From a virus, in IMG/VR virus record IMGVR_UViG_3300021476_000423, positions 42,908 to 106,907 of that record: 64,000 nt of DNA. One strand, given 5' to 3'. A model generated the notes under the pieces. It ran no database searches. It was not told where the DNA came from and worked only from the letters and a program-made list of their open reading frames with translations. Positions 7,664-53,667 of this stretch are shown one piece after another; the first letter of the stretch is position 1, and each line of letters begins with the position of its first letter. The position numbers and the translations under genes are program-made.

Positions 7664-9086
7664 GGGCGTATCTAATCGATTTGAGGTTGATGGCCTTCAG
7701 TTGTTCAACATAGACTTTGGCTTGCTCTAGGATGTCCTGTGTCACCACTTCCAGCATATCACTCATGCCACTTATCTCTATGCCAGCCAACCTTGGAAGA
7801 TTGTCAACAACTGCCATGTTGATAGCCCCACCCCTTGTGTGAGGGTAGGAATGGGCATAGTGAGCCAGAAGAAATGACCTAACTTCTATGATTTCGCATG
7901 GCTCAATCTCGTCATAGAGACTCCTCTCGTAGAGAGGTTGTCGAGTGAACTCTTTGATGGTCGGCTGATTCCAAAACTTCTGCAAAGTCACTGTCGCTCT
8001 CTCTTCCATCGCCCTATAGGTCTCAATCAGATTCTTTCTCTCAACATCGTCCAACCCCTCTGACCCTGCCTTGTCCTTTACTGGCGTATAGTCATTGTAT
8101 GCGATAATCCCAAATCTGCGTCCCATCGCATATGAGTTCCTGCATAGGTGGGCAAGAATATCTCGCATCACCGATGTATGACTTCCCGATAATGCCAATG
8201 GATTGGCTGTCGCTATGAATGGGCAAGCCGCAACTATGCGTATGGTTGCGCCCCCTGCTCCTGACAATGACCATCCCTGCTCCAACAATGTCATAAGAAG
8301 TCCTGCCACGTTCTCTACTGCCAGACTCTCTATCTGCTCTATGGTGAGCGCATAGTGCTGATTGTCAAACAACCCTCTTGCTATGTCGTCTGTCCACTTG
8401 GCCGTTCCAATCAATGTGTTCTTTGTCGTCTTGTCATACCTTGACCCTACGATGTCATAGAACGAAGTTTTGCCAGTGTTAGGTGGCGTTATGATGAGAG
8501 TATGGGGCTGATATTTCATCACATAGCCATAGGGAATAGCCGCCTTATAGACCGTCTTCAGATTATCATCTGTCTCTCCCTTGTAGGAGATGATGTTAGT
8601 CACCAAGTCCAACCAGTCTTGAGTTGGCTTCATTGTCCCATAATCGAGATACTTGTTTAGTAGTTGCTCATCAAAGTGGAAAGAGGTCTCAAAGGTATAG
8701 GTAGACAAATCATCCCACTCTTCTATGCGGGGGTCTCTCTCCTGCCCAACCTTCTTGAGAATGTATAGCCTCTCATCTCTATCGAAGATTCCATCCAGAC
8801 GAGAAGGCAAAACTCTGGCCAACGGTAATGAGGTCTTCTTGCTATGGATAACATTCTTGGTGTCTAGAATGTAGGCTGGCGGCGTGGTTGTGGATACCAT
8901 TCCCCTATACAACTTAGCCCCCAAGTTGGCCACAACACCCTCTGGCGTATCATCAAAATCCACTCTCTGATACATCGGCTCAATCATCTCAAAAACATTG
9001 AGCGCCTTGCCCATTTTGGCGTTATTTCCGTTATGACCGTTATTATCTTGGCCCGACAAATTCAACACCCATTGGATTCTGCTCAA
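7647..9086 (-). CDS. Divergent MCM-like AAA+ helicase
   Basis: HTLIITPPNTGKT (Walker A), IATANP (sensor 1), RRFG (Arg finger); Walker B reads LTIEQ; lies between primase and PolB. Confidence 0.65.
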   Translation of the reverse strand: MSRIQWVLNLSGQDNNGHNGNNAKMGKALNVFEMIEPMYQRVDFDDTPEGVVANLGAKLYRGMVSTTTPPAYILDTKNVIHSKKTSLPLARVLPSRLDGIFDRDERLYILKKVGQERDPRIEEWDDLSTYTFETSFHFDEQLLNKYLDYGTMKPTQDWLDLVTNIISYKGETDDNLKTVYKAAIPYGYVMKYQPHTLIITPPNTGKTSFYDIVGSRYDKTTKNTLIGTAKWTDDIARGLFDNQHYALTIEQIESLAVENVAGLLMTLLEQGWSLSGAGGATIRIVAACPFIATANPLALSGSHTSVMRDILAHLCRNSYAMGRRFGIIAYNDYTPVKDKAGSEGLDDVERKNLIETYRAMEERATVTLQKFWNQPTIKEFTRQPLYERSLYDEIEPCEIIEVRSFLLAHYAHSYPHTRGGAINMAVVDNLPRLAGIEISGMSDMLEVVTQDILEQAKVYVEQLKAINLKSIRYALDQSN

Positions 9087-9291
9087 ATTTCGCTAAGTTA
9101 CCTTGATTGACCTGATGCGTATGAGTTCCCTTCACATCAGCATAACACAACGGACATTGACCGTTAATCATCTGAATGAACAAAGTGCTACCCTTCCACT
9201 GATGTTTGATGTATTTCAACTTTCTTTCTAGCCGCCTCATTGCTTCTTGGTCGTGAGCAAAGTTGAGTTTGTCTTGATTGGCGATTTTCAT
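9043..9291 (-). CDS. Microprotein with MKIANQDKL N-terminus and CxxC..HxH
   Basis: ATGA-coupled; shared N-terminal motif. Confidence 0.65.
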   Translation of the reverse strand: MKIANQDKLNFAHDQEAMRRLERKLKYIKHQWKGSTLFIQMINGQCPLCYADVKGTHTHQVNQGNLAKFEQNPMGVEFVGPR

Positions 9292-9500
9292 GTGAATTCA
9301 CTTTCATCGGTTGTAACGATAGAAATTCCATCAAACGATAAGGCTTGACCTTTTAGTTCGAAAAGCCAATTGAGCCAAAGTCGTGTTGTTTCATTTATGA
9401 TAAGAGAATGATAAGGTGCATTGAACTCTTGCCACTGCTTAACGACTTCATCCCAATCAATTTGAGCATTGTCCAACTGCTGTTGGTTGGCGAATTCCAT
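9288..9500 (-). CDS. Microprotein with MEFANQQQL N-terminus
   Basis: TAATG-coupled to the PolB stop. Confidence 0.6.
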   Translation of the reverse strand: MEFANQQQLDNAQIDWDEVVKQWQEFNAPYHSLIINETTRLWLNWLFELKGQALSFDGISIVTTDESEFT

Positions 9501-11632
9501 TATGCCAACACCGTTTGGCTTGCTGGCATAATCTTCTCCTTCTTGTATTTGCTAACCTCTTCAATTACACCAAGTCTCCACATGAGGGGGTCTAACTGAT
9601 GAGATACATACCAAGAGTAGTCAATCTCGCCCTGTTGAACCAGATTGATGAGTTTAGGTATTGCGCCCCTAGTCATATAGTATTGCACCACACCATACTC
9701 TACCATATCGGTGGGAACCCATCCTGTCTTCATGGCTTCTTTGAGCGCCTTAACGTGCTGTGGCGTTCCTATCCGCCGCATCTTCCCGTCCTTTCCCTTC
9801 CTCATGCCCCCATATTCATCCACATCCTTCCCCATGTGTTTCTCCATGACAAGTAGAGGGTCGTAGACTCCTGAGAAGAGTTTGTCCTTGGTGTCTTCAT
9901 AGAAAGCCATGATTTGTTCCTTGGGGGTCTTGGTCACTAGGAACCGCTTTATGGCATCCTGTGTCATCCTTGCCAATTCGCACCAATCGCCCCGCAAACC
10001 TTCCATACCTGCTTCTTCAAATTTATCCACAACCTCTCCCGTTTTGTCAATGTGGACAATTCCAAAGTAACGCTTTTTGGCCTTCTCACCTTTGGCCGAC
10101 TTGGGGAAAGTTATGAGTGACCAGAAGTTCTCCCTCCCGTAGACGATGTTATCCACATTGTAGGTCTTCCGAACATACTCATTGATGAGGTCACGAATGG
10201 TGTCGGCCTCATCCATCGTTCCCACTACAAAGCAGGAATCTGTGTCCAGATAGAGAACCGTATAGCCCAATGAGGTAAGAAATTCCTTAACGTGAGTCTC
10301 AATATCCCTGCCGTGGAAAGTCACACTATCTGCTACTTCGACAGATTTGAAACGATAGTAAGATGAGGCAAAGATGCCATAGAGAGCATTGACCGCAATC
10401 TTGTAAGCCCATTTCTCTATCTTATCTTTGGCGTTCCGTTTTCCATAGAGAAGTTCCATGACGATTGGCTCAATCAACTTGAACTTACCCAATGGGGCCA
10501 ACTTCCATGCCAATAGAATATTGGGGTATAGTGAATCAACATCATACTGTAAGACGTTCTCGAAGGTTCCCATGCGAAGGATGTCCACCAGACCGCCCGG
10601 ATATTTGGGCCTAGTCTTGTAAGCCGTTTTACAGGGTAAAACCCACCCTATTTGGTGAGCATACTTGAGAAAATACTGGTCTAATACTGGTGTAATAGTA
10701 ATCATCTGTTTGAGGGGATGGACTCCAAAGATTTGGTCAGGAAAGACATGGCCCTGTTTGGCTAACTGTGTCATCACACGACTATACTCCTGTTTCTCAT
10801 CTATCTTACCAGTGAACTCAGCATCCCATAGCACTCTCTCCTGAAGTTGTTCGTCTGGTAGTGTGCTAAGTCGAGTATTGACAAAAGGTTTCCTCTCATC
10901 GAAAAGTCGTCTTGCCACCTTACCAAGTGCCCACTGACTTCTGAAATTCTTGCTCATGAATCTGTAGGCCAATGAAATGTCTGCAAACCGAGTTTGAGAG
11001 AAGTCGAACTTGACCTTATTGTAGGCTAGTCGCTTGGCAAAATAGGGAACGTCCCACTCTTTGCTATTCCAACCCTTCATGAGAGCAATCTTGTTCTCGG
11101 TGATAAAGTCGGTTGCCCCTTGTAGAACCTTGGCTTCCGAACTCTCTGTTCCCTGTTGAGTGATAGGATTGTATGTCCACGCATATCTTTGGCCTTTGTA
11201 AACTATACCAATGGCTGTGATTGGTTCGTTAGCGAGTTCAGGATTGGGCCTTCCACTGCTATCATCTTCCTCTGTATCCCAAGAGGCTTGATTCGGATAG
11301 TCGTCGCAAGTCAAGTTCTCGTCTAACATCCACACTCCAACATACTTTTTGTCGGCTTCATAGACGCTGATGGACTTGCTCTCAGCATAGTTACGAAAGT
11401 TCTTTACCTGCCCCGGAACATTGAACAGATACTTTTTGGTTGATTCCTCAGTATCGAAGGTGCGAAGGTCTACCCTCTCGAATTTGGCGGCAGTATTGAG
11501 TTCTCGGTTGGCCGGAATGTAGCAGTAGGGTGGAATAGGGTCATTGATGATTTCCATTTCGCCATTTCGCCAAACCTTCATTTTGACCCTGTTACCATCA
11601 ATGATGTAATTGGCACTGTCGAAAGGAATCAT
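9500..11632 (-). CDS. polB: Family B DNA polymerase with 3'-5' exonuclease
   Basis: ExoI WDTEE, ExoII GWNSKEWD, motif A DVDSLYP, motif B KIAVNALYG, motif C YLDTDS; ATG at 11632 (ATGA overlap) preferred over GTG 11653. Confidence 0.95.
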   Translation of the reverse strand: MIPFDSANYIIDGNRVKMKVWRNGEMEIINDPIPPYCYIPANRELNTAAKFERVDLRTFDTEESTKKYLFNVPGQVKNFRNYAESKSISVYEADKKYVGVWMLDENLTCDDYPNQASWDTEEDDSSGRPNPELANEPITAIGIVYKGQRYAWTYNPITQQGTESSEAKVLQGATDFITENKIALMKGWNSKEWDVPYFAKRLAYNKVKFDFSQTRFADISLAYRFMSKNFRSQWALGKVARRLFDERKPFVNTRLSTLPDEQLQERVLWDAEFTGKIDEKQEYSRVMTQLAKQGHVFPDQIFGVHPLKQMITITPVLDQYFLKYAHQIGWVLPCKTAYKTRPKYPGGLVDILRMGTFENVLQYDVDSLYPNILLAWKLAPLGKFKLIEPIVMELLYGKRNAKDKIEKWAYKIAVNALYGIFASSYYRFKSVEVADSVTFHGRDIETHVKEFLTSLGYTVLYLDTDSCFVVGTMDEADTIRDLINEYVRKTYNVDNIVYGRENFWSLITFPKSAKGEKAKKRYFGIVHIDKTGEVVDKFEEAGMEGLRGDWCELARMTQDAIKRFLVTKTPKEQIMAFYEDTKDKLFSGVYDPLLVMEKHMGKDVDEYGGMRKGKDGKMRRIGTPQHVKALKEAMKTGWVPTDMVEYGVVQYYMTRGAIPKLINLVQQGEIDYSWYVSHQLDPLMWRLGVIEEVSKYKKEKIMPASQTVLA

Positions 11633-11766
11633 ATTTGAACTATACACCCACAATCAAGACCCAATTGAAGAGGAAATCCAAGCCAATAACTCATTAGCAT
11701 CCGATACCCATGTTCTGGACACTTGATAAGATTCCATCCTAATTTGTCTTGATTTGCTAACTTCAT
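11629..11766 (-). CDS. 45-aa microprotein MKLANQDKL...CPEHG...CGC (not in ORF track)
   Basis: Hand translation; ATGA overlaps at both ends fill the gap exactly. Confidence 0.7.
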   Translation of the reverse strand: MKLANQDKLGWNLIKCPEHGYRMLMSYWLGFPLQLGLDCGCIVQI

Positions 11767-11948
11767 AGTTCCCACCTACAGTTGCAGGACAGATACAGCG
11801 TAATTCTGATGCAACCACAATCTTCATTCACCCAAGTAACCTGCAAAACGTCTTTAGTGCCATGTGTTGGACAAACTGCTTTGAAGCCACCAACTTCTTT
11901 GGAGTTGCTTGCCTCATCTAGTTCGATTTGATTCGCAAGGTCAGACAT
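11763..11948 (-). CDS. Microprotein MSDLANQIEL...CPTHG...CGC..CNC
   Basis: Resembles 11629..11766 (CPxHG and CGC). Confidence 0.65.
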   Translation of the reverse strand: MSDLANQIELDEASNSKEVGGFKAVCPTHGTKDVLQVTWVNEDCGCIRITLYLSCNCRWEL

Positions 11949-12378: not shown

Positions 12379-12390
12379 ATTAAGGATTCT

Positions 12391-13377: not shown

Positions 13378-13411
13378 TGACGAACCTTCGATTGCAAGGT
13401 ATAAAAGGATT

Positions 13412-13666: not shown

Positions 13667-13708
13667 ACCCTATACCCCTTTTTAAAGCCGTAGGACTTAA
13701 TAAAGATT

Positions 13709-15196: not shown

Positions 15197-15242
15197 CTAG
15201 TAGTAGAGGGGGAGGTAGGCTTATAAGCCTTAAGATTAGGCA

Positions 15243-25948: not shown

Positions 25949-26230
25949 ATGCCAGACAATAATATCTTCGGTTCAGACGACCATTCATGTTGGGGTAAAG
26001 CAAGAGCCATCCAAAAGAGACTTGGCATAATGCTTGGTCTGGATAGCCACGATGTCATTTCTGAAATGTGCCGATTGTGGGGCACAGCCAATGCCGATGA
26101 GTTCTACGAGAGAATGAATGGCATGAGTGATGCTGAACTTCAAGCGGCTGTAGATGCCGCATGGGATAAAGTCAAGAGACGAAAGAGACTCATGAAGCAA
26201 GTCATCGAAGTCAATGCGGGGATAGCCTAA
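25949..26230 (+). CDS. Hypothetical protein
   Basis: CTTAAATAG exactly 24 nt upstream of the ATG. Confidence 0.6.
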   Translation: MPDNNIFGSDDHSCWGKARAIQKRLGIMLGLDSHDVISEMCRLWGTANADEFYERMNGMSDAELQAAVDAAWDKVKRRKRLMKQVIEVNAGIA

Positions 26231-26920
26231 TTGCCATCGCACAAACCCACTAAAGCCGAACTCGACATCATACTAAGGCTCATGAGAGCCAACAGCACAG
26301 AAATCATGGAATGGTCGCAAATCTACATGGTTTTTCACTTGATGGAAAATGAAGAAGGCGTAGATACGGAAGCCATGAAATACAACAAAGCCGCACTTGT
26401 TCAGCAATTCAATGAGATACTTCGCAAGAACGTGCCGCCAATCGAGAAGAGAGCCAAAACCTTCCAAGAATTGAAAGAAGGAGACTTCAAAGAGGCCATC
26501 CGAGCAGACCCTCTACTCCATGTCTTCCGTAAGACCGACTACATCTATCATGTAACTCGACCTAGTATCGAAGAGAAAGAACACTCGATTGCTGACCTGC
26601 TCTTTGACTATCCACAGAATGCAGACAATCGGTTCACTCTCATCTGCACTCTTCCCGAATTAAGGGAACAGAATCTAGAGAATTGGGCCATTGTAGATGC
26701 CAATCCTGTCACTGAAGCCGTTGTCGAAGTAGATGAAGCAGGACAACCCAAGAAGAAGGTTCCTCATGGAGTCTATCGTATCTTCTGCTTCCGATGTGGC
26801 GAATTCTTCCTATACGAATTAAATGAGGGGGGGAATGTGGAGCAGATTGCTTGCGACAAGTGCAATTCTGTCATCATAGAACGAAGAGGCCGAAAGATGA
26901 CTACGACATCAACTGAGTGA
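26231..26920 (+). CDS. Hypothetical protein with C-terminal Zn ribbon
   Basis: CFRCG...CDKC. Confidence 0.6.
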   Translation: MPSHKPTKAELDIILRLMRANSTEIMEWSQIYMVFHLMENEEGVDTEAMKYNKAALVQQFNEILRKNVPPIEKRAKTFQELKEGDFKEAIRADPLLHVFRKTDYIYHVTRPSIEEKEHSIADLLFDYPQNADNRFTLICTLPELREQNLENWAIVDANPVTEAVVEVDEAGQPKKKVPHGVYRIFCFRCGEFFLYELNEGGNVEQIACDKCNSVIIERRGRKMTTTSTE

Positions 26921-27167
26921 CTATCTTCTCTTCTGTAACGTCTTTCAACTTCGCCAAAGCCATCAAATAGTGTCCAAATTCGTGTTTTATCTTCTCTTCG
27001 GTGGCTTTGTTTGTAATGCCGATATGCCAATCGGGATGGTCTGAGAAGTAGACTCCTACGCCGGGTGCTCTTACTGCCTTTGGCACTAGAATGACTTGGA
27101 TTGGTGGCACACCCCATTCATGTGCCAAGTCATCGACTATCTTCTGAGCCACTTTACGGGATAACAT
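26901..27167 (-). CDS. Minimal HExxH metallopeptidase-like protein
   Basis: GVY...IGI...KHEFGHYL...EE. Confidence 0.55.
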   Translation of the reverse strand: MLSRKVAQKIVDDLAHEWGVPPIQVILVPKAVRAPGVGVYFSDHPDWHIGITNKATEEKIKHEFGHYLMALAKLKDVTEEKIVTQLMS

Positions 27168-27918
27168 TAGGATAGGTCACTTCAAAAGCCGAGACAACGA
27201 AATATGGAGTGGTCAGACCATAATCGATAAAATCTCGTGCAAACTGACTCGTTCCTGTAAGGTCTATGTAATGGTATCCTGCTGTCATATTTATGGCTAT
27301 GTAGGGAATGACTGCTCCAACTGTAGTAAGTTGAGCATCATTGTCAAGAGGATGCCAATTGTAAACCAAGTAGACTTTGCTATCTATTGTGATGGTAAGA
27401 TTGACACCTTCCAACATTGAATGACCCGATATTAGAAAGTAAACGGTTCCTGCTTGTGTAAGAGAGAAAGTGTTGAAATATCCGGTGTCTGCCTCTTGAA
27501 AAGGCAGAACTTGGGTTATTGTGGATTCGGTTTGGGCCGTGGCTTGAACGGCTATATTGACTGACCATTCTTGAGCATTATTGAGAGTCATCCATTGGAG
27601 AGTGTCGGTAGCGGTATAAGGCAAATTGATGATATCATTGAAAGTATTTGGTAGACTTCCATCTCTATGAAGCGGAGTTATGACTCTAGCCACTTCGATA
27701 TTGCCATCCATAACAGAGATGATTCTATCGTAGGCATCGTAAGTGGAGTGTCCACTGATATCTACGAGAGTTCCCTTAGATGTGTTAGGAAGAATGGTTA
27801 CAATATGAGAGTTGCCAGACAGAATAGGGACTGAAGGAGCAATCAATAACATAGCCAAATAGAGTGTCAGCAAAACCAACGGAATTTTGAGTTTGATAGG
27901 TAATTTGGACAATCTCAT
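27154..27918 (-). CDS. Membrane-anchored/secreted beta-rich protein
   Basis: N-terminal hydrophobic helix; coupled to Lon. Confidence 0.6.
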   Translation of the reverse strand: MRLSKLPIKLKIPLVLLTLYLAMLLIAPSVPILSGNSHIVTILPNTSKGTLVDISGHSTYDAYDRIISVMDGNIEVARVITPLHRDGSLPNTFNDIINLPYTATDTLQWMTLNNAQEWSVNIAVQATAQTESTITQVLPFQEADTGYFNTFSLTQAGTVYFLISGHSMLEGVNLTITIDSKVYLVYNWHPLDNDAQLTTVGAVIPYIAINMTAGYHYIDLTGTSQFARDFIDYGLTTPYFVVSAFEVTYPNVIP

Positions 27919-30290
27919 TTCTTCTTCACCTTATTCCATATCTCATCTTCTTCCGAGTCTCCCCGAACCTGTTCCCAATAAGAGAGCACCGTATCTGAAG
28001 ATACGACTTTGATACCCTCAAACTGGTCATTTGAGATAATCTTACCATCGTAATTCTCTTTGGGTATCAGAACATATTTAAGTCCATATCTCTTGGCTCC
28101 CCGAATCTTCTCATACACACCACCGATAGCCGAAATCTTGATGTCACCTGCCCTCTCTTCCTTCAATTCCATCGCTCCTGTCATGGCTATGTCCTGTCTC
28201 AATGGGACTGGTATCAACTCGAACTCGGACTTGAGTTTACCAGAGGCTAAATGGGCTTTCCAGCGTTTCTTGAACTCTCTTGGGTCTCCTAACCACGACA
28301 TAAGAGAGACAGTCATAGTGATGCCAGCACTTGGCCCATCTACCTTAGTCTGAGAGAACTTGATGTGAACATAGCAATCCTTCCCTATGTCTACGCCGTA
28401 TATCCTAAGTATGGCTGTTCTGACTTCGCGTTTCGAGTCCTGCACATCGGTTTCATCGCCTCTCACCACACCTGTAACCTCAAAATTGGCATAGTCGTGA
28501 GAATCTACGAATCTGAGGAAAGACTGCACCTGCATTACATCGCCAGCCCCTTCGCCGCCGTGGGGAGCCGCCACTACTGCCAATCCGTTGACCTGACCTA
28601 CTTTGGTTCCAACATTCTCTACTAGCGAAATGGCTTCCTTCTTCTCCAATCGATGTTCGATAACCTGCTTCTCGATGGTTTCAGTGTAATGTTCGATAGC
28701 ATCTTTCACATGACTGTCTCGAACTATAACATCACCATCCTTCCACGAGAGTTGTGATGACCTCTTGAGCACTTTGATGACGGCTCTGAACATCAATTTG
28801 ATGTGGTCTTTGTCGCTGGCTCTTTGTTTCACATATTCAAGTATGCGCTTTACACCTGCCGCTTCCATAGGTGGAAAGCCGAACCTGTAAAGTTCGTCCC
28901 TTACGACCTGTGCCACAAGCATCTCATTGAGAGGCGTGGCTTCTACCTCATCCTTCAGTGCGATGATGTCACCATAGTTCTCAAACCTGTCTCTAAGAGC
29001 AGGGAATTGATTGATAATGCTATGTGGGTCGTCCAATACATCCAAATTGCCAGCCGCAAAGAGAAAGAACATGGCCTTGACAGGTGGTGTTTGAATGTTC
29101 TGTCCTGCCGTTCCGCCACCGCCGCTAGTGGAAGTATTATCGGCTTGCTGTTGGATAGGAAACTCCCCATCTTCCATTGCAGTCAGAAGTTTGATGGCTG
29201 ATGATTGAGAGAGATTGCGAATCTCATCTATGTAGAGAATCTTCTTGTTGGCTTCATGAATCTTCCCTGCTTGAACTCTACGGTAAGGTGGTTTGGCCAT
29301 TGCACCAGTTTGCCACGGAGACCACTCTATCGAGCCAAAGAGGGCGGCATCCGAAACCAGAGTGCAGTTGACATACATTTGAGTTGACTCAGGGTCATTA
29401 TCCACAAGTAGATTGGGAATGTGTTTTTGTTCGTTACCCTGTTGTCCGAACATCCAACGCTGTTGCCAGAACATAATCATGATGAACATAGGAAAGCCTA
29501 TCATGGTCATTCCCAAACCAAAGTAAACGCTGGCCGAATTCAACAGAGCAGACTCAAAATCCATGCCACCAAGCATATTCAATAACATCTTTCTAAGACC
29601 TAATGAAATCAACATAACCCCAATAAAGATGATAGTCCCAATGCCACCATAGAGCAAAGCGTTTTTCTTACGTCCTTTCTGTGTTTCCTTTATTTCGGCA
29701 TACTCAACTACCTTTTTGGCGGTTCCTGCTGGCTTGATATATCTCACATTGGCCTTGTAGCGATTGATGCGGTCTTCGCCAAGCATAACGTCTTCAAGTT
29801 CGATGCCCTCTTCCTTGTATTTGTCCTTCAGCGATTCGGCCATAACTTTGATAATGAGAGACTTACCAGTGCCGGGTTCACCCAACATAAGAATGTTGTT
29901 AGTTGGTCTTTCACGCAAAACTGCCGAAAGTTTGACTCCGGCGGCTTCTTTCTTTTCCATCTCCTGAAGTTGTTTCAGAGTGCGAATCCATTCTATCTCA
30001 CTAAGGTCAATCTTCTTGAGGGCGGCATCCTGACCGATAATCCAGTCCTTGAACTTCTCTGGCACACGAATGTCATCAGTAGTGTGCTTGGCTTTGGAGT
30101 CGAAGAATTTATCGGTGAAAGCCTTGGGGTCGCTACGCCATTTATCATCTCGAAGGTCGAACTCTGGCTTCAATATCTCCATGTCTCTCTGAATCTTTTC
30201 CGTTGAAACTTTGATTTCACCAAAGTCATGGTCTTCCTTACCTTCTCTCAGTCGTCTCTTCACTCGTCTAAAGACGCTTGGGATTCTCAT
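27915..30290 (-). CDS. lonB: Archaeal-type membrane-anchored Lon protease (LonB)
   Basis: IIGQD, GEPGTGKS, two TM helices inside the AAA+ domain, LYIDEI, GQVNGLAV, catalytic DGPSAG and GGVYEK. Confidence 0.92.
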   Translation of the reverse strand: MRIPSVFRRVKRRLREGKEDHDFGEIKVSTEKIQRDMEILKPEFDLRDDKWRSDPKAFTDKFFDSKAKHTTDDIRVPEKFKDWIIGQDAALKKIDLSEIEWIRTLKQLQEMEKKEAAGVKLSAVLRERPTNNILMLGEPGTGKSLIIKVMAESLKDKYKEEGIELEDVMLGEDRINRYKANVRYIKPAGTAKKVVEYAEIKETQKGRKKNALLYGGIGTIIFIGVMLISLGLRKMLLNMLGGMDFESALLNSASVYFGLGMTMIGFPMFIMIMFWQQRWMFGQQGNEQKHIPNLLVDNDPESTQMYVNCTLVSDAALFGSIEWSPWQTGAMAKPPYRRVQAGKIHEANKKILYIDEIRNLSQSSAIKLLTAMEDGEFPIQQQADNTSTSGGGGTAGQNIQTPPVKAMFFLFAAGNLDVLDDPHSIINQFPALRDRFENYGDIIALKDEVEATPLNEMLVAQVVRDELYRFGFPPMEAAGVKRILEYVKQRASDKDHIKLMFRAVIKVLKRSSQLSWKDGDVIVRDSHVKDAIEHYTETIEKQVIEHRLEKKEAISLVENVGTKVGQVNGLAVVAAPHGGEGAGDVMQVQSFLRFVDSHDYANFEVTGVVRGDETDVQDSKREVRTAILRIYGVDIGKDCYVHIKFSQTKVDGPSAGITMTVSLMSWLGDPREFKKRWKAHLASGKLKSEFELIPVPLRQDIAMTGAMELKEERAGDIKISAIGGVYEKIRGAKRYGLKYVLIPKENYDGKIISNDQFEGIKVVSSDTVLSYWEQVRGDSEEDEIWNKVKKK

Positions 30291-31228
30291 TTGTTGGCCA
30301 CCTTTGACCTATTACGGTCATCCAAAAACAACACTCTTGGCTGTTGTGCTTCAACCTTTCTAAGTAGGGATTCCAAATGAGGCGAAGCAATCAATCTTCG
30401 TCTGTCATTGATATATTTCTTGAACCACCCTTCGAAAACATAGATTAGAACGGCCCCCAAACTTGCTACCCATAACTCCCAATAGGTGAAATAGAGACCA
30501 CCCACTTCGGCGGCAAGAAGATAGAGATTGAGGAGGAAGACGACCGGACTGATGGGTTTGTAGATTTGTCCAACTGGTGTTTTCCAAATATTGGTATCTA
30601 CTTCATCAATTTGTGATGGAAGTGCCGAAAAATAGGTATAATGGAGCATAAGTCCTGATGCTCTATCCCATTCAAGCATGGTTCCGGTAAGTGAATTTTG
30701 ATAGGTATAGGTGTTTCTGAACGCCAAATCGATGACATCGCCACCGAAAGCCGCCACAAAAATTCCAAAGCCTCCCTGAGTGATAGCAACTCTTTCATCC
30801 AGATTCACAAAATCATTGGTTTGAAGATAAGGACTGATGACTGGAAGTCGCATGAAAAATTGATATTTGGGAATGGAGAAATCTGTCTTTGGAACCATTG
30901 AGATTGTTTGATTACCTATAGCCATTGTGATAACCTTGTTATCATCACCTGCGCCTTTTACTGTGATGAGTTGAAGGTAACTGTGCTGAGAATGGTCAAA
31001 CAAAGTGAGCGTCACATTGAATAGAATCAAAGTAGGCGAAATAGTTTGCACTACTTCTACACGAAAGGAATTGATGAAAGGATGATAGGTCACACTGTAA
31101 TCAACGTAGGCTCCGGGCGTGAGTAGAGGCGAAATCTGATAATCTTCGACAAATGAAGCGTGGCTTACTGGCGCAAAGGAGAGGAGCATCATCAAAATGA
31201 ATGCTAAAGCAAGCCCCTTTCGTTTCAT
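30287..31228 (-). CDS. Secreted/membrane protein, first gene of the Lon operon
   Basis: Signal peptide (..SHA), WDRASGLML motif, two C-terminal TM helices. Confidence 0.65.
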   Translation of the reverse strand: MKRKGLALAFILMMLLSFAPVSHASFVEDYQISPLLTPGAYVDYSVTYHPFINSFRVEVVQTISPTLILFNVTLTLFDHSQHSYLQLITVKGAGDDNKVITMAIGNQTISMVPKTDFSIPKYQFFMRLPVISPYLQTNDFVNLDERVAITQGGFGIFVAAFGGDVIDLAFRNTYTYQNSLTGTMLEWDRASGLMLHYTYFSALPSQIDEVDTNIWKTPVGQIYKPISPVVFLLNLYLLAAEVGGLYFTYWELWVASLGAVLIYVFEGWFKKYINDRRRLIASPHLESLLRKVEAQQPRVLFLDDRNRSKVANK

Positions 31229-44371: not shown

Positions 44372-44412
44372 CTGAGAGTTTATTAAGGGCGGAAGGTATT
44401 TAACGTTTCAGT

Positions 44413-47918: not shown

Positions 47919-47920
47919 AC

Positions 47921-48589
47921 CTATTTGACCTCATCAGCCCCTAATAAAGATTCATCGGGAACCACAGTCTCAAAGGACTCAAGTGGTGGGATAATGACCG
48001 TATTGGGGTTTTCCTTGGGTCTCAGATAAGACCACACTAGAACGTAGAAGACTGTAGCAATGGCCTTAGTCCCAACATTATTGGCCGGAATACACAAGTC
48101 CACCCCCTCAAGAGTGGCATCGGTATTGCAGATGGCAATGACAGGAATGCCCTGACTGGCCGCTTCATCCATTGCTCTGCGCTCAAATTTGAGGGGTTCC
48201 CCTATCTTAGTGGGCACTCCACAAGTAGGGTCAGCAACAAGCAAAACGTCACACTCCTGATAGTATTTCATCAGAGGATTACTCAGAGTTCCGGCATACA
48301 TCCTACCCTGAAGAGTGGTAACTTTTGTTGCCATATGGAAGGATTTTATTCCATTCTCGAATCGTTTGTCGGTTGCGTAGACAACAGGACTTTGGCTCTT
48401 TCTCATGAACTTGCCAGCCACATCAAGTCTATCCAACACCAACTTGGGGTCTAGGATGGGATTGCCAGCCAAAGAGATTTCCTTGACAAAGGGTTTCATG
48501 TCTTTACTTACCTGTCCCTTTTTACCGAAGAGAATGCCAGTGGCTTCGAACACAGCCTCAGTAAGTGAGGCAGGTAATTCGAATGTCAT
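47921..48589 (-). CDS. rps2: Divergent archaeal ribosomal protein uS2 homologue
   Basis: DMKPFV, LDRLDVAGKF, GRMYAGTLSNP, DVLLVADP, EA...GIPVIAICNTD, VDLCIPANN.G..AI. Confidence 0.9.
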   Translation of the reverse strand: MTFELPASLTEAVFEATGILFGKKGQVSKDMKPFVKEISLAGNPILDPKLVLDRLDVAGKFMRKSQSPVVYATDKRFENGIKSFHMATKVTTLQGRMYAGTLSNPLMKYYQECDVLLVADPTCGVPTKIGEPLKFERRAMDEAASQGIPVIAICNTDATLEGVDLCIPANNVGTKAIATVFYVLVWSYLRPKENPNTVIIPPLESFETVVPDESLLGADEVK

Positions 48590-48780
48590 CTGACGATTCT
48601 CACCACTTTCTTAGGATTAGGATTCGGAATGACGATTTCAATAACGTGCCCTGTATCGTTGATAATGTGATAGTCGTAAATGATGATTTCATCATTAGGT
48701 GGCATAATTCTCCTAATGTCATTTCCGCTTGGTGGAACAGCAGTTGCAACCTTGAGTTTATCGTTATTGGCTAACTTCAC
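48586..48780 (-). CDS. Microprotein with MKLANNDKL N-terminus
   Basis: GTG start; ATGA-coupled to uS2. Confidence 0.6.
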   Translation of the reverse strand: MKLANNDKLKVATAVPPSGNDIRRIMPPNDEIIIYDYHIINDTGHVIEIVIPNPNPKKVVRIVR

Positions 48781-49987: not shown

Positions 49988-49998
49988 GTGATTGACCT

Positions 49999-50694
49999 CT
50001 ATATCGAGACACTTCCCAAGTTGCCGTAGGGTTCCAACTTCTTGTGGACGAACTCAAGCACATCGACATCAATTTTGTTGTGCTTCATCACATACTTGAT
50101 GCTCTTGCTGAGACCGTATCCTGCAAGAATCCAGTCGTCTGGATTGATTTCTGTCTTCTGCTCTGGTGCGCCCAAGAACTTGGCTATCACATCCAACCTA
50201 TTGGAGTGGAGAGCCAACTTATACTTGGCCAGAAGGTAGGTGTCCAGACCAAACATCTGTCTGTAGACGGGGAATTTGATTCCATACTTCAGGAATCGGG
50301 TTCTGAGGAATCTTACGTCAAGTCCACGCTGGATGGTTCCGTAGTGGCATACGATGATGTCATACTGTGGAAGTATCTTAGCAAGGTCTCTGAGAATCCG
50401 GCGGTCAGTGACCACCTTTCCCAACTTCTTGCTCAGTGCTACATCTGCTTCAGTGATAGCCTCTTGATAGTAGATTTTCTTGTCCCTCTCTTTTGCAGTC
50501 CATGAAATGCACACTCCAAAGTCTGCGGCTAACTGGCTCACTTCTATATCTAGATAGAGAACCTTCGCATCCTTCAGTCGGGCCTTTTCCCAACACGCTA
50601 AATGTGTGCAAGCATCGCCACCATCCTTGCAAGTGAAGACTCTGTGTCTATGTTCACAGATGAAAGACCTTATGTCGAGTTTCTTTGTTGTCAT
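49999..50694 (-). CDS. DEDD/RNase H-like 3'-5' exonuclease
   Basis: LDIE, HYG...LDV, DTY, NRLD, HNKIDV. Confidence 0.8.
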   Translation of the reverse strand: MTTKKLDIRSFICEHRHRVFTCKDGGDACTHLACWEKARLKDAKVLYLDIEVSQLAADFGVCISWTAKERDKKIYYQEAITEADVALSKKLGKVVTDRRILRDLAKILPQYDIIVCHYGTIQRGLDVRFLRTRFLKYGIKFPVYRQMFGLDTYLLAKYKLALHSNRLDVIAKFLGAPEQKTEINPDDWILAGYGLSKSIKYVMKHNKIDVDVLEFVHKKLEPYGNLGSVSI

Positions 50695-50698
50695 CTTT

Positions 50699-51109
50699 TT
50701 ACCTCTTCACTACGATGCTTCCTTTGGGCACTATATAGGTGTTTTTGAGATAATGGATTAGAATGTCACATTTTACTCTCTTTATCTTGAGATATGGTTG
50801 TAAAGCATAACAAATACGAAGAACGTCAATCTTCGCTTGAACTCGCCACTCAATTTGGGCATGGGGATTTGAACCACTATAGCCCTTTCCCACAAAATAT
50901 CTCTTTGGCCGAAAATAGATATGACCTGCCGCAAAGAAACGCTGTATCTCCTTCATAAGAGCCATATTTGTAGGCGTATGTATAACTGCAAATTTCACTG
51001 TGCCCTTTTTATGGGCATATGTTTTCCCTTTGTAGTGGGAACTACTATTACTTAAAAAGAAACTGCCTTCACCATCCATGAGACCTGCTATATATTGAGC
51101 AGAAAGCAC
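50699..51109 (-). CDS. Free-standing single-motif LAGLIDADG homing endonuclease
   Basis: YIAGLMDGEGSF; LQPYLKIKR. Confidence 0.85.
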   Translation of the reverse strand: MLSAQYIAGLMDGEGSFFLSNSSSHYKGKTYAHKKGTVKFAVIHTPTNMALMKEIQRFFAAGHIYFRPKRYFVGKGYSGSNPHAQIEWRVQAKIDVLRICYALQPYLKIKRVKCDILIHYLKNTYIVPKGSIVVKR

Positions 51110-51729
51110 TATCTCACTATCTTTACTGCGTCTCCAACAGTTTGAAGATTCTCTTCTGTGCCTACATCAACGGCCTTTGTCTTAATGACCTTGAAATCCG
51201 TTCCACGCTGAATCATTCGTGCCGTCACATCACCTATCTTGCCGTGAGTCAATTGACCATTGGTCAGGAGTAGATTGGTGGTAGTTTTGAACATCCCACT
51301 GAAACTGCCATCTGCTTTCATTACAACTGCGTTCTTGGCCGCAAGAAAGTCATCGACCCAATTGAAGTCCAGTCCGAAGTAGAGGTCGATAGGCGATATG
51401 ACGACTTCATCCATCTCATGATTCATGGCTAATGAGGCCGCACCACTCGTTACCCACAATGAGGGATTGTTGACATTCCCTAACGAGTTCTGAGTATCGA
51501 GAAACAGACTCATGTTTCGACCCAAATCCTTACCGTAGGTGAAATACCAGTTGTTCCAGAAGCCCTGAAAGACTCTATTATGAATAATCCATACCGTATC
51601 TGATGGTATGTTGTCGATGACTGCTTCAAAGAGATATTTGCCAGTCACCATGTCGGTAAGAAGATGCTTTGGAAGGGCTGTTTGTGGATATCCCCCTGCC
51701 ATGAGTATTAGTGCCCGTTTCTCACTCAT
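51109..51729 (-). CDS. Sugar-phosphate nucleotidyltransferase-like protein (divergent)
   Basis: ALILMAGG..LPKHLL, D, DVGT. Confidence 0.65.
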   Translation of the reverse strand: MSEKRALILMAGGYPQTALPKHLLTDMVTGKYLFEAVIDNIPSDTVWIIHNRVFQGFWNNWYFTYGKDLGRNMSLFLDTQNSLGNVNNPSLWVTSGAASLAMNHEMDEVVISPIDLYFGLDFNWVDDFLAAKNAVVMKADGSFSGMFKTTTNLLLTNGQLTHGKIGDVTARMIQRGTDFKVIKTKAVDVGTEENLQTVGDAVKIVR

Positions 51730-51764
51730 TGATTAGCCTCTCTTTAGCAGGGTTAATAAGGATT

Positions 51765-52619
51765 CTAAGCCGTTGAAGGCTTTGCGACCATATTCGTGCC
51801 CCTTCTGATAGTCCAGAAGTCACTAGCCAACTGAGCATCGGCTAGGTAGTCGAAGGGAATGTAGAAGTAACCGTGGTCTCCCCAACCAGTGCCCCATGAG
51901 TTGCGGCAGATGAACCACTGCTTCTCATCGTCATATCCTAGACACATGACTGCGTGACCTCCCAAAACAGGTTCCAAGCCCGAAGGCATAGGTATGATGC
52001 CTGTCGAATCTGCTGATGGACTCTCGAAACTCGCATAGACAGTGAATCCGTAGACGAAGGGATAGCCAGCATCGAGACAAGCCTTCATGTCGGCCAGACT
52101 GGTGATTTTGAAGTATTGCACAATTTCGTGATTGCTGGCTTCAACGTAGGCCGCTTGTGGCGGTTGGACAGCGAATTGGTTGATGTCGTAGGGCCAAGTC
52201 GTCTCATAACAGGAACCCTGACTTGCTAGAGTCTTGATTCCATCTCTTATCTCTGCACCAGAATCCGAACTTGTCGTTCCTTCGATAACCCTTTCGTTGT
52301 AGTAGACGAACAACCGACTGAATGCTTGGTCGGGTAGGCTGTCTTTAACCTCTAGAAACTGCAAAGCCCCTGCTAGAGCATTTGCAGTGCAACTACCAAG
52401 TTGTCCTTGGTCTTCGATGGGTGAATCATCGGAACGCAAATCTACCTTCTTATTATCGGAAGGCTGTGGTTTGGGTTTTGGATGGAAAAGATTGACTAGC
52501 CACTCGAAAAAGTAACCAATGGGTGTCTTCGGAAGAGGCTCTTTCACATCTTGACCCGCATGGTAGATGAAGTCTCTTTCGTCGGGCTTGTCCTTAATCC
52601 AACCATAAGAATGTGGCAT
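51765..52619 (-). CDS. Papain-like (C1A) cysteine protease
   Basis: DQGQLGSCTANA, SRLFVYY, GGHAV, RNSWG..WG..GY. Confidence 0.92.
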   Translation of the reverse strand: MPHSYGWIKDKPDERDFIYHAGQDVKEPLPKTPIGYFFEWLVNLFHPKPKPQPSDNKKVDLRSDDSPIEDQGQLGSCTANALAGALQFLEVKDSLPDQAFSRLFVYYNERVIEGTTSSDSGAEIRDGIKTLASQGSCYETTWPYDINQFAVQPPQAAYVEASNHEIVQYFKITSLADMKACLDAGYPFVYGFTVYASFESPSADSTGIIPMPSGLEPVLGGHAVMCLGYDDEKQWFICRNSWGTGWGDHGYFYIPFDYLADAQLASDFWTIRRGTNMVAKPSTA

Positions 52620-52673
52620 ACACTAATCATAGGAAGGCATAGGTATTTAAGGCTGGCGGCTGATAAAGTCTCT

Positions 52674-53132
52674 ATGGCATCAATTACAGGTTTCGGAACA
52701 GAGGGTGTTCCATCCTTCCAACTAATCTCAACAACCAACATTTCGACCAACAAAACAATCCAAATTCAGTCGGATGACGCTCTCGTTTTCAACTTCAATG
52801 CGGCAGATGGAACTTTCATCGGTCAAATCGCTTCACCAGATGGAGCAGGGCCATATGTCGCTTCTGGCTCTCTTATTCCTGTGCCCTATCCTACTACAGT
52901 CACAGTAACAGTGCTTGATAAGTCAACACAAGTTCAGTTGGGAATGACCACACTCCAACTCTTCGGCGGCGATGTCTTCAAATGCAGAGTCTCCTACAAA
53001 GAGTATGTTCCCATCGCCAATGGTTATGTCGCAGTCCTTCTCAACGGCCAACAAACCATCGTGCGGGGTCAAATCTACGGCGATTTACCCTATGATAATG
53101 ACGATGTGATTCCGAGAGGCGGAGCAGGTTAG
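52674..53132 (+). CDS. Beta-rich hypothetical protein, possibly virion
   Basis: Start MASITGFG at 52674, about 24 nt after a shared TATA. Confidence 0.55.
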   Translation: MASITGFGTEGVPSFQLISTTNISTNKTIQIQSDDALVFNFNAADGTFIGQIASPDGAGPYVASGSLIPVPYPTTVTVTVLDKSTQVQLGMTTLQLFGGDVFKCRVSYKEYVPIANGYVAVLLNGQQTIVRGQIYGDLPYDNDDVIPRGGAG

Positions 53133-53264
53133 GCTCTTGTTTGCGGCCCCTTTGCCGCATTTTCATGTTCCTCAGAACAATAGGCGGTGCGCCGCCAACC
53201 TGTTCCATCGTTAAATCCATCGACTCTCTCACCAATCCTCAGATGGTCAGAGTCGATTATCTTC

Positions 53265-53528
53265 TTACACACTCGACACTCTAGTATCAACTGTTCTCAA
53301 CTTTTCTCGAAGTTCGGCTCTTTCATTGGACAACCTTTCTTCCGGCCTATCGAAGTAGGCTTCGAAATTGAAAGCATTGTCTTTGAAGTATGGGTCGTTG
53401 GGGTCAGAAGAGAAGAAGTTAACGTGCCATACCTTGGCCTCTGGATTTTGACACTCTAAAAGACCATCCACATCTGTCAGAAAATAGTGACAGACAGGAC
53501 AAGGAATGTTGGTTTCTTCCATTGGCAT
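53265..53528 (-). CDS. Zn-ribbon small protein
   Basis: CPVC...CQN. Confidence 0.5.
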   Translation of the reverse strand: MPMEETNIPCPVCHYFLTDVDGLLECQNPEAKVWHVNFFSSDPNDPYFKDNAFNFEAYFDRPEERLSNERAELREKLRTVDTRVSSV

Positions 53529-53532
53529 AATC

Positions 53533-53667
53533 TCATTCCTTTGAGGAAGGCTCCAACTTTTCGTGGAAGCCTCTATCTATAGATACTGTTCCTGCTCCAT
53601 GACATAATGGACAAGTTTCGACACTCATTTCATGAACAATCAATTTATCTTCGTTTGTCAATTTCAA
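53533..53667 (-). CDS. 44-aa microprotein MKLTNEDKL...CPLCHGAG (not in ORF track)
   Basis: TTG start overlapping the Alba stop. Confidence 0.6.
   Translation of the reverse strand: MKLTNEDKLIVHEMSVETCPLCHGAGTVSIDRGFHEKLEPSSKE

What the first reader, a model, noticed from the sequence alone, without database searches (positions are those of the whole stretch)
9043..53667. Six scattered microproteins share an N-terminal M-K-L-A-N-x-D-K-L-like tag
Seen: MKIANQDKL (9043..9291), MEFANQQQL (9288..9500), MKLANQDKL (11629..11766, unannotated), MSDLANQIEL (11763..11948), MKLANNDKL (48586..48780) and MKLTNEDKL (53533..53667, unannotated). Codons vary silently (tta gca aat, atc gcc aat, tta gcc aat, ttg aca aac). 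The bodies after the tag are mostly unrelated, and four carry Cys/His ligands. All overlap a neighbouring gene and flank key genes: PriX, PolB, the MCM-like ATPase, DHH/uS2 and Alba. Inference: a portable docking or targeting peptide. Candidate roles are a degron or adaptor tag for the viral Lon, a substrate tag for the viral N-acetyltransferase, a clamp-binding motif, or a nascent-peptide translational-coupling element. I recognise no described family.
Basis: partly seen in the sequence, partly recalled or inferred. Interest (0 to 1): 0.78.

Follow-up and report, generated by a model that had tools for sequence, protein, structure and literature searches.

The report
Shared address peptide on archaeal-virus microproteins
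An uncultured tailed virus of archaea, and several of its relatives, put the same roughly 13-residue helical peptide on about 17 otherwise unrelated small proteins; it behaves like a portable docking label whose reader is still unknown.

Summary
All six ORFs exist on the minus strand and start with the motif h-A-N-x-x-[EKQ]-L-x-x-A-[RK] (N5 and L9 invariant).

- **Enrichment:** the 107-kb genome has 16 profile hits at 10.5-20.5 bits, then a drop to 5.7. The motif sits at 14 ORF starts, against 0.13 in shuffles.
- **Level of selection:** codons at N5, L9 and A12 follow genome usage, so selection acts on the peptide.
- **Conservation:** the tag is kept in orthologues whose bodies share 35-71% identity. 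It occurs in three of five PolB lineages of this small clade from peat or bog metagenomes, and nowhere else among 1.84 billion representative proteins.
- **Modularity:** the same bodies occur untagged in a tag-free sister lineage. Linker length varies. Three tag-like copies are C-terminal and one lies 18 residues in.

These points argue against an N-degron, an N-acetyltransferase substrate or a nascent-peptide element. Lon is absent from tag-bearing relatives, so it is not the general reader.

Best reading: a short docking helix read by one shared partner. Host PCNA is only a weakly supported candidate (ipSAE 0.32, best control 0.01, stand-in clamp).

The closest analogues are the T4 capsid-targeting sequence and clamp-binding peptides. 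No Pfam or PHROG family matches.

This scan noted the same tag in overlapping windows of this genome. It also noted different shared tags in other archaeal viruses.

The parts
9043..9291 (-). Tagged ORF of 82 aa (MKIANQDKLNFA..., body with CPLC...HTH). The tag is encoded by 9253-9291. It lies between a second tagged ORF and a P-loop ATPase gene.
   Evidence: Profile score 20.5 bits. Codon LLR 0.145, gene-like. A 67-71%-identical orthologue keeps the tag (P0009, also L079:12202).
9288..9500 (-). Tagged ORF of 70 aa (MEFANQQQLDNA...). The tag is encoded by 9462-9500. Its start overlaps the PolB stop by 1 nt.
   Evidence: 16.9 bits; LLR 0.252. The orthologue in G003 keeps the tag at 35% body identity. 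The G002 homologue carries a 45-aa Cys-rich N-terminus instead.
11629..11766 (-). Tagged ORF of 45 aa (MKLANQDKLGW..., CPEH...DCGC). The tag is encoded by 11728-11766. It sits directly upstream of PolB.
   Evidence: 20.4 bits. Codon LLR -0.047, ambiguous. It aligns with ORFs in the same position in G002 and L087, sharing tag + C..H...W...DCG.
11763..11948 (-). Tagged ORF of 61 aa (MSDLANQIELDEA..., CPTH...DCGC). The tag is encoded by 11907-11948. It overlaps the PriX stop by 8 nt and is a tandem paralogue of 11629..11766.
   Evidence: 17.7 bits. Blastp to its neighbour E 7e-4. LLR 0.002, ambiguous.
48586..48780 (-). Tagged ORF of 64 aa with a GTG start (KLANNDKLKVA..., no Cys/His). The tag is encoded by 48742-48780.
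   Evidence: 13.7 bits; LLR 0.324, gene-like.
53533..53667 (-). Tagged ORF of 44 aa with a TTG start (KLTNEDKLIVH..., CPLCHG). The tag is encoded by 53629-53667. Its start overlaps the stop of the Alba-like gene. This is the second 'unannotated' ORF and the weakest member.
   Evidence: 11.7 bits, just under the highest shuffle score of 12.2. LLR 0.043, ambiguous. No orthologue found.
9503..9523 (-). The last seven codons of PolB (ASQTVLA). This is a C-terminal Q-x-x-L tail conserved in every lineage of the clade and similar to the tag core A-N-Q-x-x-L. It may be read by the same partner.
   Evidence: Q706 and L709 are invariant in the six-sequence PolB alignment. C-termini of 16 PolBs were compared. 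The link to the tag is inference only.

Best explanation
The 'LANQ tag' is a lineage-specific, portable short linear motif. It is a helix of 10-13 residues that starts at the invariant Asn, which is probably the N-cap. Leu9 and Ala12 lie on one face.

The tag is joined through a flexible linker of variable length to at least 17 otherwise unrelated small accessory proteins. Many of these bind zinc. It is usually at the N-terminus and occasionally at the C-terminus.

I think it works as a common docking or address peptide. One reader protein recognises the helix, and so a fast-changing set of small viral proteins is brought to the same place. Most tagged genes are wedged into replication and DNA-metabolism operons, and none lies in a head or tail module. 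The leading named candidate is the host sliding clamp.

What is shown: the enrichment, the peptide-level selection, the conservation, and the modular and position-independent nature of the tag.
For: 1. **Non-random and specific.** There are 16 profile hits at 10.5 bits or more, then a gap, and 14 N-terminal regex hits against 0.13 in shuffles. A continuous array of about 60 small plus-strand ORFs in the same genome carries no tag.
2. **Peptide-level selection.** Codons at N5, L9 and A12 follow genome usage, and all six Leu codons occur at L9.
3. **Conserved in orthologues with diverged bodies.** Examples are w9288 versus G003 (35%), the B-box-like family (40-43%), w9043 versus P0009 (67-71%) and G000_019 versus P0010 (63%).
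4. **Old in the clade.** The tag or close variants ([h]-[ASE]-N-x-x-[EK]-L-x-x-A-R) occur in three of five PolB lineages, including the one that branches deepest by midpoint rooting. They sit around PriX and PolB each time.
5. **Modular.**
   - G000_019 aligns to an untagged homologue in the tag-free genome G001 from residue 20 onward.
   - The ESM Atlas structure matches for it cover residues 22-100 only.
   - One body carries the tag in G000 and G003 but a Cys-rich N-terminus in G002.
   - The linker differs by 18-21 residues among orthologues.
6. **Position-independent.**
   - One copy lies 18 residues in (G000_006).
   - C-terminal copies occur in G000_004 and its G003 orthologue, while the orthologue in the tag-free lineage lacks that extension.
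   - A 59-aa Zn-ribbon ORF also ends in the motif.
   - In total there are 2 C-terminal hits in this genome against 0.16 in shuffles.
7. **Helix.** In two low-confidence AlphaFold2 models (pLDDT 60 and 48) the helix begins at residue 6.
8. **Lineage-wide shifts.** Residue 2 is K/R/N in G000 and S in G002/G003. Residue 7 is basic in 1 of 15 tags versus 10 of 15. Residue 8 is acidic in 4 of 15 versus 11 of 15. This fits co-adaptation to one reader, but the paralogues are not independent samples.
9. **Clamp candidate.**
   - PolB of every lineage ends in Q-x-x-L.
   - A complex prediction of a 30-residue tag alignment with a stand-in Nitrososphaeria PCNA gave ipSAE 0.32 against a best control of 0.01, verdict 'weak support'.
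   - That mark was reached by 58 of 80 solved complexes and 2 of 110 mismatched pairs. At 0.60 or under, only 7 of those 80 reached it, as did both mismatches that passed.
   - The runs agree in at least 79% of contacts, and the partner's pLDDT is at least 49.
   - Many PCNA-peptide complexes are solved, so the pass may come from likeness to known structures.
Against: - No reader has been identified, and nothing shows binding.
- The host is unknown. The nearest cellular uS2 homologues are Nitrososphaeria MAGs at 35% identity, found by a pattern-biased search. No close MCP was found in 401 genomes of that class. The PCNA used was therefore a stand-in.
- The tag lacks the aromatic pair of a PIP box, and its Gln is only about 60% conserved. 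Fen1 tails in the stand-in archaea end L-D-x-W-[FL], not Q-x-x-L.
- The lineage-specific residue shifts could come from lineage-specific paralogue expansion or gene conversion rather than co-adaptation.
- A4 and L3 show some codon bias.
- Three of the six window ORFs have ambiguous codon statistics, and no expression data could be obtained.
- The tag-free lineage keeps the same replication genes, so a viral replisome reader would have to exist there without clients.
Confidence: 0.5

Rival explanations
1. Capsid-targeting signal. As with the T4 CTS on internal proteins, the tag loads a polymorphic set of small proteins into the procapsid, through the scaffold or shell, for injection with the DNA. 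It may then be cleaved off.
For: - The architecture is the same as in T4: a short conserved terminal peptide on highly diverse small proteins (PMC3012670).
- The virus is a tailed virus with an HK97-type capsid, portal, terminase and a coiled-coil scaffold.
- Earlier notes of this scan report scaffold-like tags in other archaeal tailed viruses (unchecked leads).
- A basic residue often follows A12, which could mark a processing site.
Against: - No tagged gene lies in a head or tail module. They sit in replication and DNA-metabolism operons and overlap the stop of the upstream gene by 1-17 nt.
- The termini of the scaffold protein do not resemble the tag. Its 'MSTAN' start is not conserved in orthologues.
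- No prohead protease was found by Pfam among 10 structural-module proteins. This is not an exhaustive search.
- The tag-free sister lineage has the same head genes.
Confidence: 0.15
2. Degradation or processing signal. The tag marks the proteins for a protease, either for timed turnover or for removal of the tag. Candidates are a host protease or the viral papain-like C1 peptidase.
For: - Peptidase_C1 (window 51765..52619, Pfam 2e-13) is present in all three tag-bearing genomes at 63-65% identity. It is absent from the complete tag-free genome G001.
- Terminal tags on flexible linkers are typical of degrons.
Against: - The co-occurrence rests on three related genomes against one. It may reflect kinship or host type, for example a lysis enzyme.
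- Lon_C occurs only in this genome, so the viral Lon cannot be the general reader.
- The tag is predicted to be helical with an N-cap, whereas papain-type proteases bind extended peptides (low confidence).
- It is unclear why about 17 different proteins would all need one virus-specific degron.
Confidence: 0.12
3. Relic of common descent. All tagged genes are paralogues of one fast-evolving family, and the N-terminal helix is kept only for folding or stability. There is no shared reader.
For: - Tagged genes often lie in tandem arrays.
- One adjacent pair is still detectably homologous.
- A capping-box-like pattern (N-cap Asn, Leu at N4) is a generic helix-stabilising feature. This point is inference.
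Against: - The bodies include Zn-ribbon, C2H2-like, B-box-like, all-helical and beta-rich types with no detectable similarity.
- Homologous bodies exist without the tag and fold without it.
- The linker length varies.
- C-terminal copies exist.
- The invariance of N5 and L9 against free change elsewhere needs tag-specific selection.
Confidence: 0.12
4. Nucleic-acid-level or translation element. On this reading the conserved 5' coding sequence serves one of three roles: recombination between cassettes, re-initiation after the upstream stop, or an effect of the nascent peptide on early elongation.
For: - Every window copy overlaps the upstream stop codon.
- Tagged cassettes change position between genomes. 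For example, the w9288 orthologue lies 98 kb into G003.
- There is mild codon bias at L3 and A4.
Against: - Synonymous sites at N5, L9 and A12 are as free as in the genome at large.
- No shared upstream motif is visible.
- The tag also works at 1-5 or 18 residues from Met and at C-termini.
- Most small, equally overlapping ORFs in the genome lack it.
Confidence: 0.05

Closest known systems
Capsid targeting sequence (CTS) of T-even phage internal proteins (IPI-III, Alt)
   Same: Both are short conserved terminal peptides shared by a highly diverse, fast-changing set of small viral proteins, and both are portable between bodies. [quoted passage not shown]
   Different: - No sequence likeness is apparent.
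- The genes lie in replication operons, not near head genes.
- No prohead protease or cleavage site was identified.
- Copies can be C-terminal.
- The host is an archaeon.
- Packaging is untested.
PIP-box and other sliding-clamp-binding peptides, including TIP, the small Thermococcales inhibitor of PCNA
   Same: - Both are short terminal motifs on flexible linkers, carried by many unrelated proteins that dock on one hub.
- The tag core N-Q-x-x-L shares Q-x-x-L with the PIP box and with the conserved C-terminal tail of the viral PolB.
- TIP is a small protein with a non-canonical PIP followed by an amphipathic helix (PMC6204406).
- The complex prediction with a stand-in PCNA gave weak support.
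   Different: - The aromatic pair is absent, with Ala and Arg/Lys in its place.
- Gln is only about 60% conserved, while Asn is invariant.
- Fen1 tails of the stand-in archaea use L-D-x-W-[FL].
- The host and its clamp are unknown.
Shared terminal 'address tags' noted by this scan in other archaeal tailed viruses (different peptides, for example C-terminal ..NW[KR].. tails and N-terminal M-x-W-x-x-[ILV][ILV]-K)
   Same: The design is the same: one short peptide per virus clade on a tenth to a fifth of the small genes. It is uniform within a genome, and in one case it lies near the replication module. These are AI notes and mostly unchecked.
   Different: The peptide sequence is different, with no tryptophan. 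In the magrovirus cases the tag matched the scaffold tail; here it does not.
Leader peptides of RiPP precursors (for example prochlorosins), and cargo-loading peptides of encapsulins
   Same: In both, a conserved terminal recognition peptide is joined to variable payloads and read by one enzyme or shell. This comparison rests on my own knowledge.
   Different: - The payloads here are folded domains of 30-95 aa that have untagged homologues.
- The genes are scattered, not next to a modifying enzyme.
- The ATP-grasp/amidoligase cluster noted by another reader has orthologues in the tag-free lineage too.

Membership tests
T4-type capsid targeting sequence | A short conserved N-terminal peptide shared by diverse small proteins of one virus | tested here: met
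   Sixteen profile hits in the genome; the bodies are unrelated.
T4-type capsid targeting sequence | Removal by the prohead protease at a conserved site after the tag | tested here: inconclusive
   No prohead protease was found by Pfam in 10 structural-module proteins. A basic residue often follows A12. Cleavage cannot be tested here.
T4-type capsid targeting sequence | Tagged proteins are present inside the virion, and the tag binds the scaffold core | not testable with these tools
   Only an indirect check was possible: the scaffold termini do not resemble the tag.
PIP-box (PCNA-interacting peptide) | Consensus Q-x-x-[LIM]-x-x-[FYW]-[FYW] | tested here: not met
   Q is present in 18 of 30 tags and L in 30 of 30. 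Positions +7 and +8 are Ala and Arg/Lys, never an aromatic pair.
PIP-box (PCNA-interacting peptide) | Terminal position on a flexible segment of otherwise unrelated client proteins | tested here: met
   N- and C-terminal copies with variable linkers.
PIP-box (PCNA-interacting peptide) | Binds the clamp of the host | tested here: inconclusive
   ipSAE 0.32 against a best control of 0.01, verdict 'weak support', with a stand-in Nitrososphaeria PCNA. The mark was reached by 58 of 80 solved complexes and 2 of 110 mismatches; at 0.60 or under only 7 of those 80 reached it, as did both mismatches that passed. The host is unknown.
Any Pfam-A or PHROG family | A significant profile match shared by the tagged proteins | tested here: not met
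   Twenty-seven tagged proteins were scanned. No family matched more than 3 members, and the best match of that family had E 0.066.
N-degron or N-terminal acetylation substrate | A defined residue at the extreme N-terminus | tested here: not met
   Residue 2 varies. The tag lies 0-5 or 18 residues from Met, or at the C-terminus.
Substrate tag of the viral Lon | Lon co-occurs with the tag | tested here: not met
   Lon_C is found in G000 only, not in the tag-bearing G002 (79% complete) or G003 (complete).

The most novel reading that the evidence does not exclude
Archaeal tailed viruses run clade-specific 'address peptide' systems. Here, a 13-residue helix lets a rapidly turning-over set of about 17 small zinc-binding and other effector proteins all dock on one hub, giving the virus a modular, swappable toolkit for taking over the host replisome. 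The hub would be the host sliding clamp or another replisome component, and the PolB tail would be read by the same site.
Probability: 0.2. Interest if true: 0.78.

Novelty: new variant of a known kind. Interest (0 to 1): 0.62.

Why it matters
Most genes of archaeal viruses are small ORFs of unknown function. A shared address peptide gives an experimental handle on many of them at once. That would place about 17 unknown proteins per genome in a pathway.

This scan has noted comparable tags with different sequences in other archaeal tailed viruses. The design may therefore be a general organising principle of these viruses: a modular accessory proteome addressed to one hub. It would be comparable to the T4 capsid-targeting sequence or to clamp-binding motifs, but it has not been described for viruses of archaea.

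A short portable tag with a specific reader would also be useful as a tool.

Tried and rejected
- **Wider family.** A profile of 29 tags searched against 1.84 billion representative proteins gave only two members of this clade plus one unrelated repeat protein. A degenerate DNA pattern scanned over IMG/VR gave 31 stretches, about the number expected by chance. Only contigs of this clade had several tags.
- **More relatives.** PolB searches of IMG/VR (single protein and alignment) found the same eight loci. The metagenome scan added L079 and L087-L090.
- **A different tag in the tag-free lineage.** None was seen among 119 small G001 ORFs or with a relaxed regex.
- **Viral Lon as reader.** Rejected.
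- **Viral GNAT as reader.** It is present in the tag-free lineage too.
- **Viral PCNA.** None was found.
- **Scaffold-tail mimicry.** Not seen.
- **Phylogenetic profiling.** Genes in G000, G002 and G003 but not in G001 include the C1 peptidase, the pair G000_140/141, a LAGLIDADG gene and three others. With three related genomes against one this is only a lead.
- **Host identification.** The nearest cellular uS2 homologues were Nitrososphaeria MAGs at 35% identity. The MCP gave only 26-30% hits in 3 of 401 genomes of that class.
- **PDB sequence searches.** Two neighbouring large proteins gave nothing useful.
- **AlphaFold2 monomers.** Both were of low confidence.
- **Other terminal Q-x-x-[LIM] motifs in the large viral proteins.** Only the PolB tail recurred across genomes.
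Full report
**What is there**

The window is the right-hand 64 kb of a 106,907-bp virus record. All six ORFs of the finding exist on the minus strand at the stated coordinates. Two use non-ATG starts: GTG at 48780 and TTG at 53667. Each begins 1-17 nt before the end of the upstream gene, so the ORFs are packed into operons with no spacer.

The shared N-terminus is best written as M-x-L-A-N-Q-x-[EKQ]-L-x-x-A-[RK]. Asn5 and Leu9 are invariant and Ala4 is nearly so, in 29-32 aligned copies.

**Is it more than chance?**

Yes, clearly.
- A loose regex for the core hits 18 places in six frames of the genome. Fourteen of them lie within six codons of a start codon of an ORF that stays open for at least 30 codons.
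- One hundred dinucleotide-preserving shuffles gave means of 2.17 and 0.13, with maxima of 7 and 1.
- A 14-column profile gives 16 hits between 10.5 and 20.5 bits, and the next hit scores 5.7. The top score of each of ten shuffles ranged from 3.4 to 12.2, only two above 8.
The other ten lie in the left 43 kb. Another first-stage note on the same genome had listed most of these.
- In the left arm of the genome, a continuous array of about 60 small plus-strand ORFs carries no tag at all. The motif is therefore not a general property of small genes in this virus.

**Peptide or nucleotide?**

At the invariant Leu9 all six Leu codons occur. Codon usage at Asn5, Leu9 and Ala12 matches that of the long genes of these genomes. 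Ala4 is enriched for GCC and Leu3 for TTA and CTA. No common upstream motif is visible. Selection therefore acts mainly on the peptide.

**What virus is it?**

It is a tailed virus.
- **Structural genes:** portal, gpA-type large terminase, HK97-type capsid protein, tail tube and a coiled-coil scaffold.
- **Archaeal-type genes:** PriX, a family-B DNA polymerase, a RadA-like ATPase (weak), a divergent uS2 and an Alba-like protein that scores below the Pfam cut-off.
- **Unconfirmed labels:** 'MCM-like' and 'DHH' could not be confirmed by Pfam or PDB sequence searches.
- **Relatives:** all come from a handful of JGI metagenomes. Their sample numbers look to me like peat or bog series, but that rests on my own recollection.
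- **Host:** the nearest cellular uS2 sequences found were Nitrososphaeria MAGs at 35% identity. A capsid-protein search of 401 genomes of that class found only distant matches. The host remains unknown.

**Distribution and conservation**

A PolB tree shows five lineages. The tag occurs in three of them:
- this genome and L079;
- G002 and G003, with about 7-9 and 8 copies;
- the lineage that is deepest by midpoint rooting (L087, L090). There, four consecutive small ORFs around PriX and PolB start with close variants, [h]-[ASE]-N-x-x-[EK]-L-x-x-A-R.

The complete genome G001 and its relatives have none, even with a relaxed pattern. In them PriX abuts PolB directly.

Orthologues keep the tag while their bodies diverge:
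- w9288 versus G003, 35% identity;
- the B-box-like family, 40-43%;
- w9043 versus P0009, 67-71%;
- G000_019 versus P0010, 63%.

Outside this clade nothing was found. A profile search of 1.84 billion representative proteins returned only clade members. A degenerate DNA pattern over IMG/VR gave chance-level single hits elsewhere. Pfam and PHROGs recognise no family.

**The tag is a separable module**

1. The bodies are not detectably related, except for one tandem pair. They range from Zn ribbons and C2H2-like or B-box-like fingers to helical and beta-rich proteins.
2. G000_019 (tagged) aligns with an untagged G001 protein from its residue 20 onward. ESM Atlas structure matches to clusters of viral proteins cover residues 22-100 only.
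3. One body carries the tag in G000 and G003, but a 45-residue Cys-rich N-terminus in G002.
4. The spacer between tag and body differs by 18-21 residues among orthologues.
5. The motif is not tied to the N-terminus.
   - It lies 1-5 residues from Met in several proteins and 18 residues in for G000_006.
   - It closes the C-terminus of G000_004 and of its G003 orthologue, whereas the orthologue in the tag-free lineage lacks that extension.
   - It also ends a 59-aa Zn-ribbon ORF next to two tagged genes.
   - The count is two C-terminal hits in this genome against 0.16 in shuffles.
6. Two AlphaFold2 models, both of low confidence (pLDDT 60 and 48), start a helix at residue 6. This fits Asn5 as an N-cap, with Leu9 and Ala12 on one face. 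The capping interpretation is my inference.

**What the positional freedom excludes**

- **N-degron or N-acetyltransferase substrate.** Either needs a defined first residue. The GNAT is also present in the tag-free lineage.
- **Nascent-peptide or re-initiation element.** This would have to sit at the start of the ORF.
- **Viral Lon as reader.** Lon_C is found only in this genome, inside a block of genes that has no orthologues in the relatives. It is missing from the tag-bearing G003, which is complete.

**Who reads the tag?**

This could not be settled.

Tagged genes sit in replication and DNA-metabolism operons. Around PriX and PolB this holds in every tag-bearing lineage. None lies in a head or tail module.

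PolB of all lineages ends in Q-x-x-L followed by 0-2 residues, after a variable linker. This resembles the tag core A-N-Q-x-x-L and a minimal clamp-binding tail. The virus has no PCNA of its own.

- The score was ipSAE 0.32 against a best control of 0.01, verdict 'weak support'.
- That mark was reached by 58 of 80 solved complexes and 2 of 110 mismatched pairs. At 0.60 or under, only 7 of those 80 reached it, as did both mismatches that passed.
- The runs agree in at least 79% of contacts, and the partner's pLDDT is at least 49.
- Many PCNA-peptide complexes are solved, so the pass may reflect likeness to known structures.

Against the clamp idea:
- the tag has no aromatic pair;
- Gln6 is present in only 18 of 30 copies;
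- Fen1 tails in the stand-in archaea end L-D-x-W-[FL].

I put the clamp at roughly one chance in five.

- A papain-like C1 peptidase co-occurs with the tag. It is present in G000, G002 and G003 and absent from G001. Three related genomes against one is not evidence of a functional link.
- Residues 2, 7 and 8 differ systematically between this genome and G002/G003. This would fit co-adaptation to a lineage-specific reader, but it could equally come from lineage-specific paralogue expansion.

**Comparison with what is known**

The closest analogue in design is the capsid-targeting sequence of T-even internal proteins: a short conserved peptide on a polymorphic set of small proteins (PMC3012670). 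In context, the closest are clamp-binding peptides and the small PCNA inhibitor TIP (PMC6204406).

The tag fails the sequence definition of a PIP box. For the T4 CTS it meets only the architectural criterion; cleavage was inconclusive and virion packaging could not be tested. I file it under neither.

Earlier notes of this scan describe the same design, with different peptides, in other archaeal tailed viruses. These notes are largely unchecked. I tested one of their leads, that the tag copies the scaffold tail, and it does not hold here.

**Verdict**

- The 'portable peptide' reading is supported.
The clamp-binding role stays open with weak support.
- The six ORFs differ in how well they are supported as genes. 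9043, 9288 and 48586 have gene-like codon usage. 11629 and 11763 rest on the tag plus a shared C..H...W...DCG pattern with ORFs in the same position in two other lineages. 53533 rests on the tag and its snug fit between neighbouring genes only.
- This is a new, clade-restricted variant of a known kind of system, with an unknown reader.

Noticed in passing
window 9503-9523 (-), and the PolB ends in L001-L008 and L079-L091: PolB of every lineage of the clade ends in Q-x-x-L plus 0-2 residues after a variable linker. This looks like a minimal clamp-binding tail without the usual aromatic pair, although the virus encodes no PCNA.
   Followed up: partly
window 51765-52619 (-): A papain-family (C1) cysteine peptidase without an obvious signal peptide. 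It is 63-65% identical in G002 and G003 and absent from the complete tag-free relative G001.
   Followed up: partly
window 26901-31228 (-): A block of four genes with no orthologues in the three relatives compared. It includes a 782-aa protein carrying the only Lon_C domain found in the clade, and looks like a recent acquisition.
   Followed up: partly
window 50699-51109 (-): A free-standing LAGLIDADG-type ORF (its start reads ...YIAGLMDGEGSF...) between an RNase H-like gene and a 206-aa gene. Weak homologues occur in G002 and G003, and none in G001.
   Followed up: no
genome 36779-36958 (-), i.e. 5.9 kb left of the window (L010:16779-16958): An uncalled 59-aa Zn-ribbon ORF that ends with a tag-like peptide (MLLANFDQLMDADR). 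Its stop overlaps the start of the next tagged gene.
   Followed up: partly
genome 5690-6053 (-), left of the window (L009): Two tagged ORFs overlap by 68 nt in different frames (starts at 6053 and 5881). This is either a true overlap or one decaying copy.
   Followed up: no
window 47921-48589 (-): A virus-encoded divergent uS2. The nearest cellular matches in a pattern-based genome scan were Nitrososphaeria MAGs at about 35% identity, which is a hint to the host only.
   Followed up: partly
G003 record positions 72700-72721 and 98260-98274; G002 record positions 972-993: Three tagged ORFs in the relatives are preceded by a similar 'ttctatacc(at)' or 'tttccaccat' box 5-12 nt before the ATG. 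It may be a promoter element, and it resembles the ATATAC box that another first-stage note reported in this genome.
   Followed up: no
window 26231-26920 (+) and 25949-26230 (+): An adjacent gene pair, of 93 aa and of 229 aa with a C-terminal Zn ribbon. It is conserved at 47-73% identity in the tag-bearing G002 and G003 but was not found in the tag-free G001. Its function is unknown.
   Followed up: no
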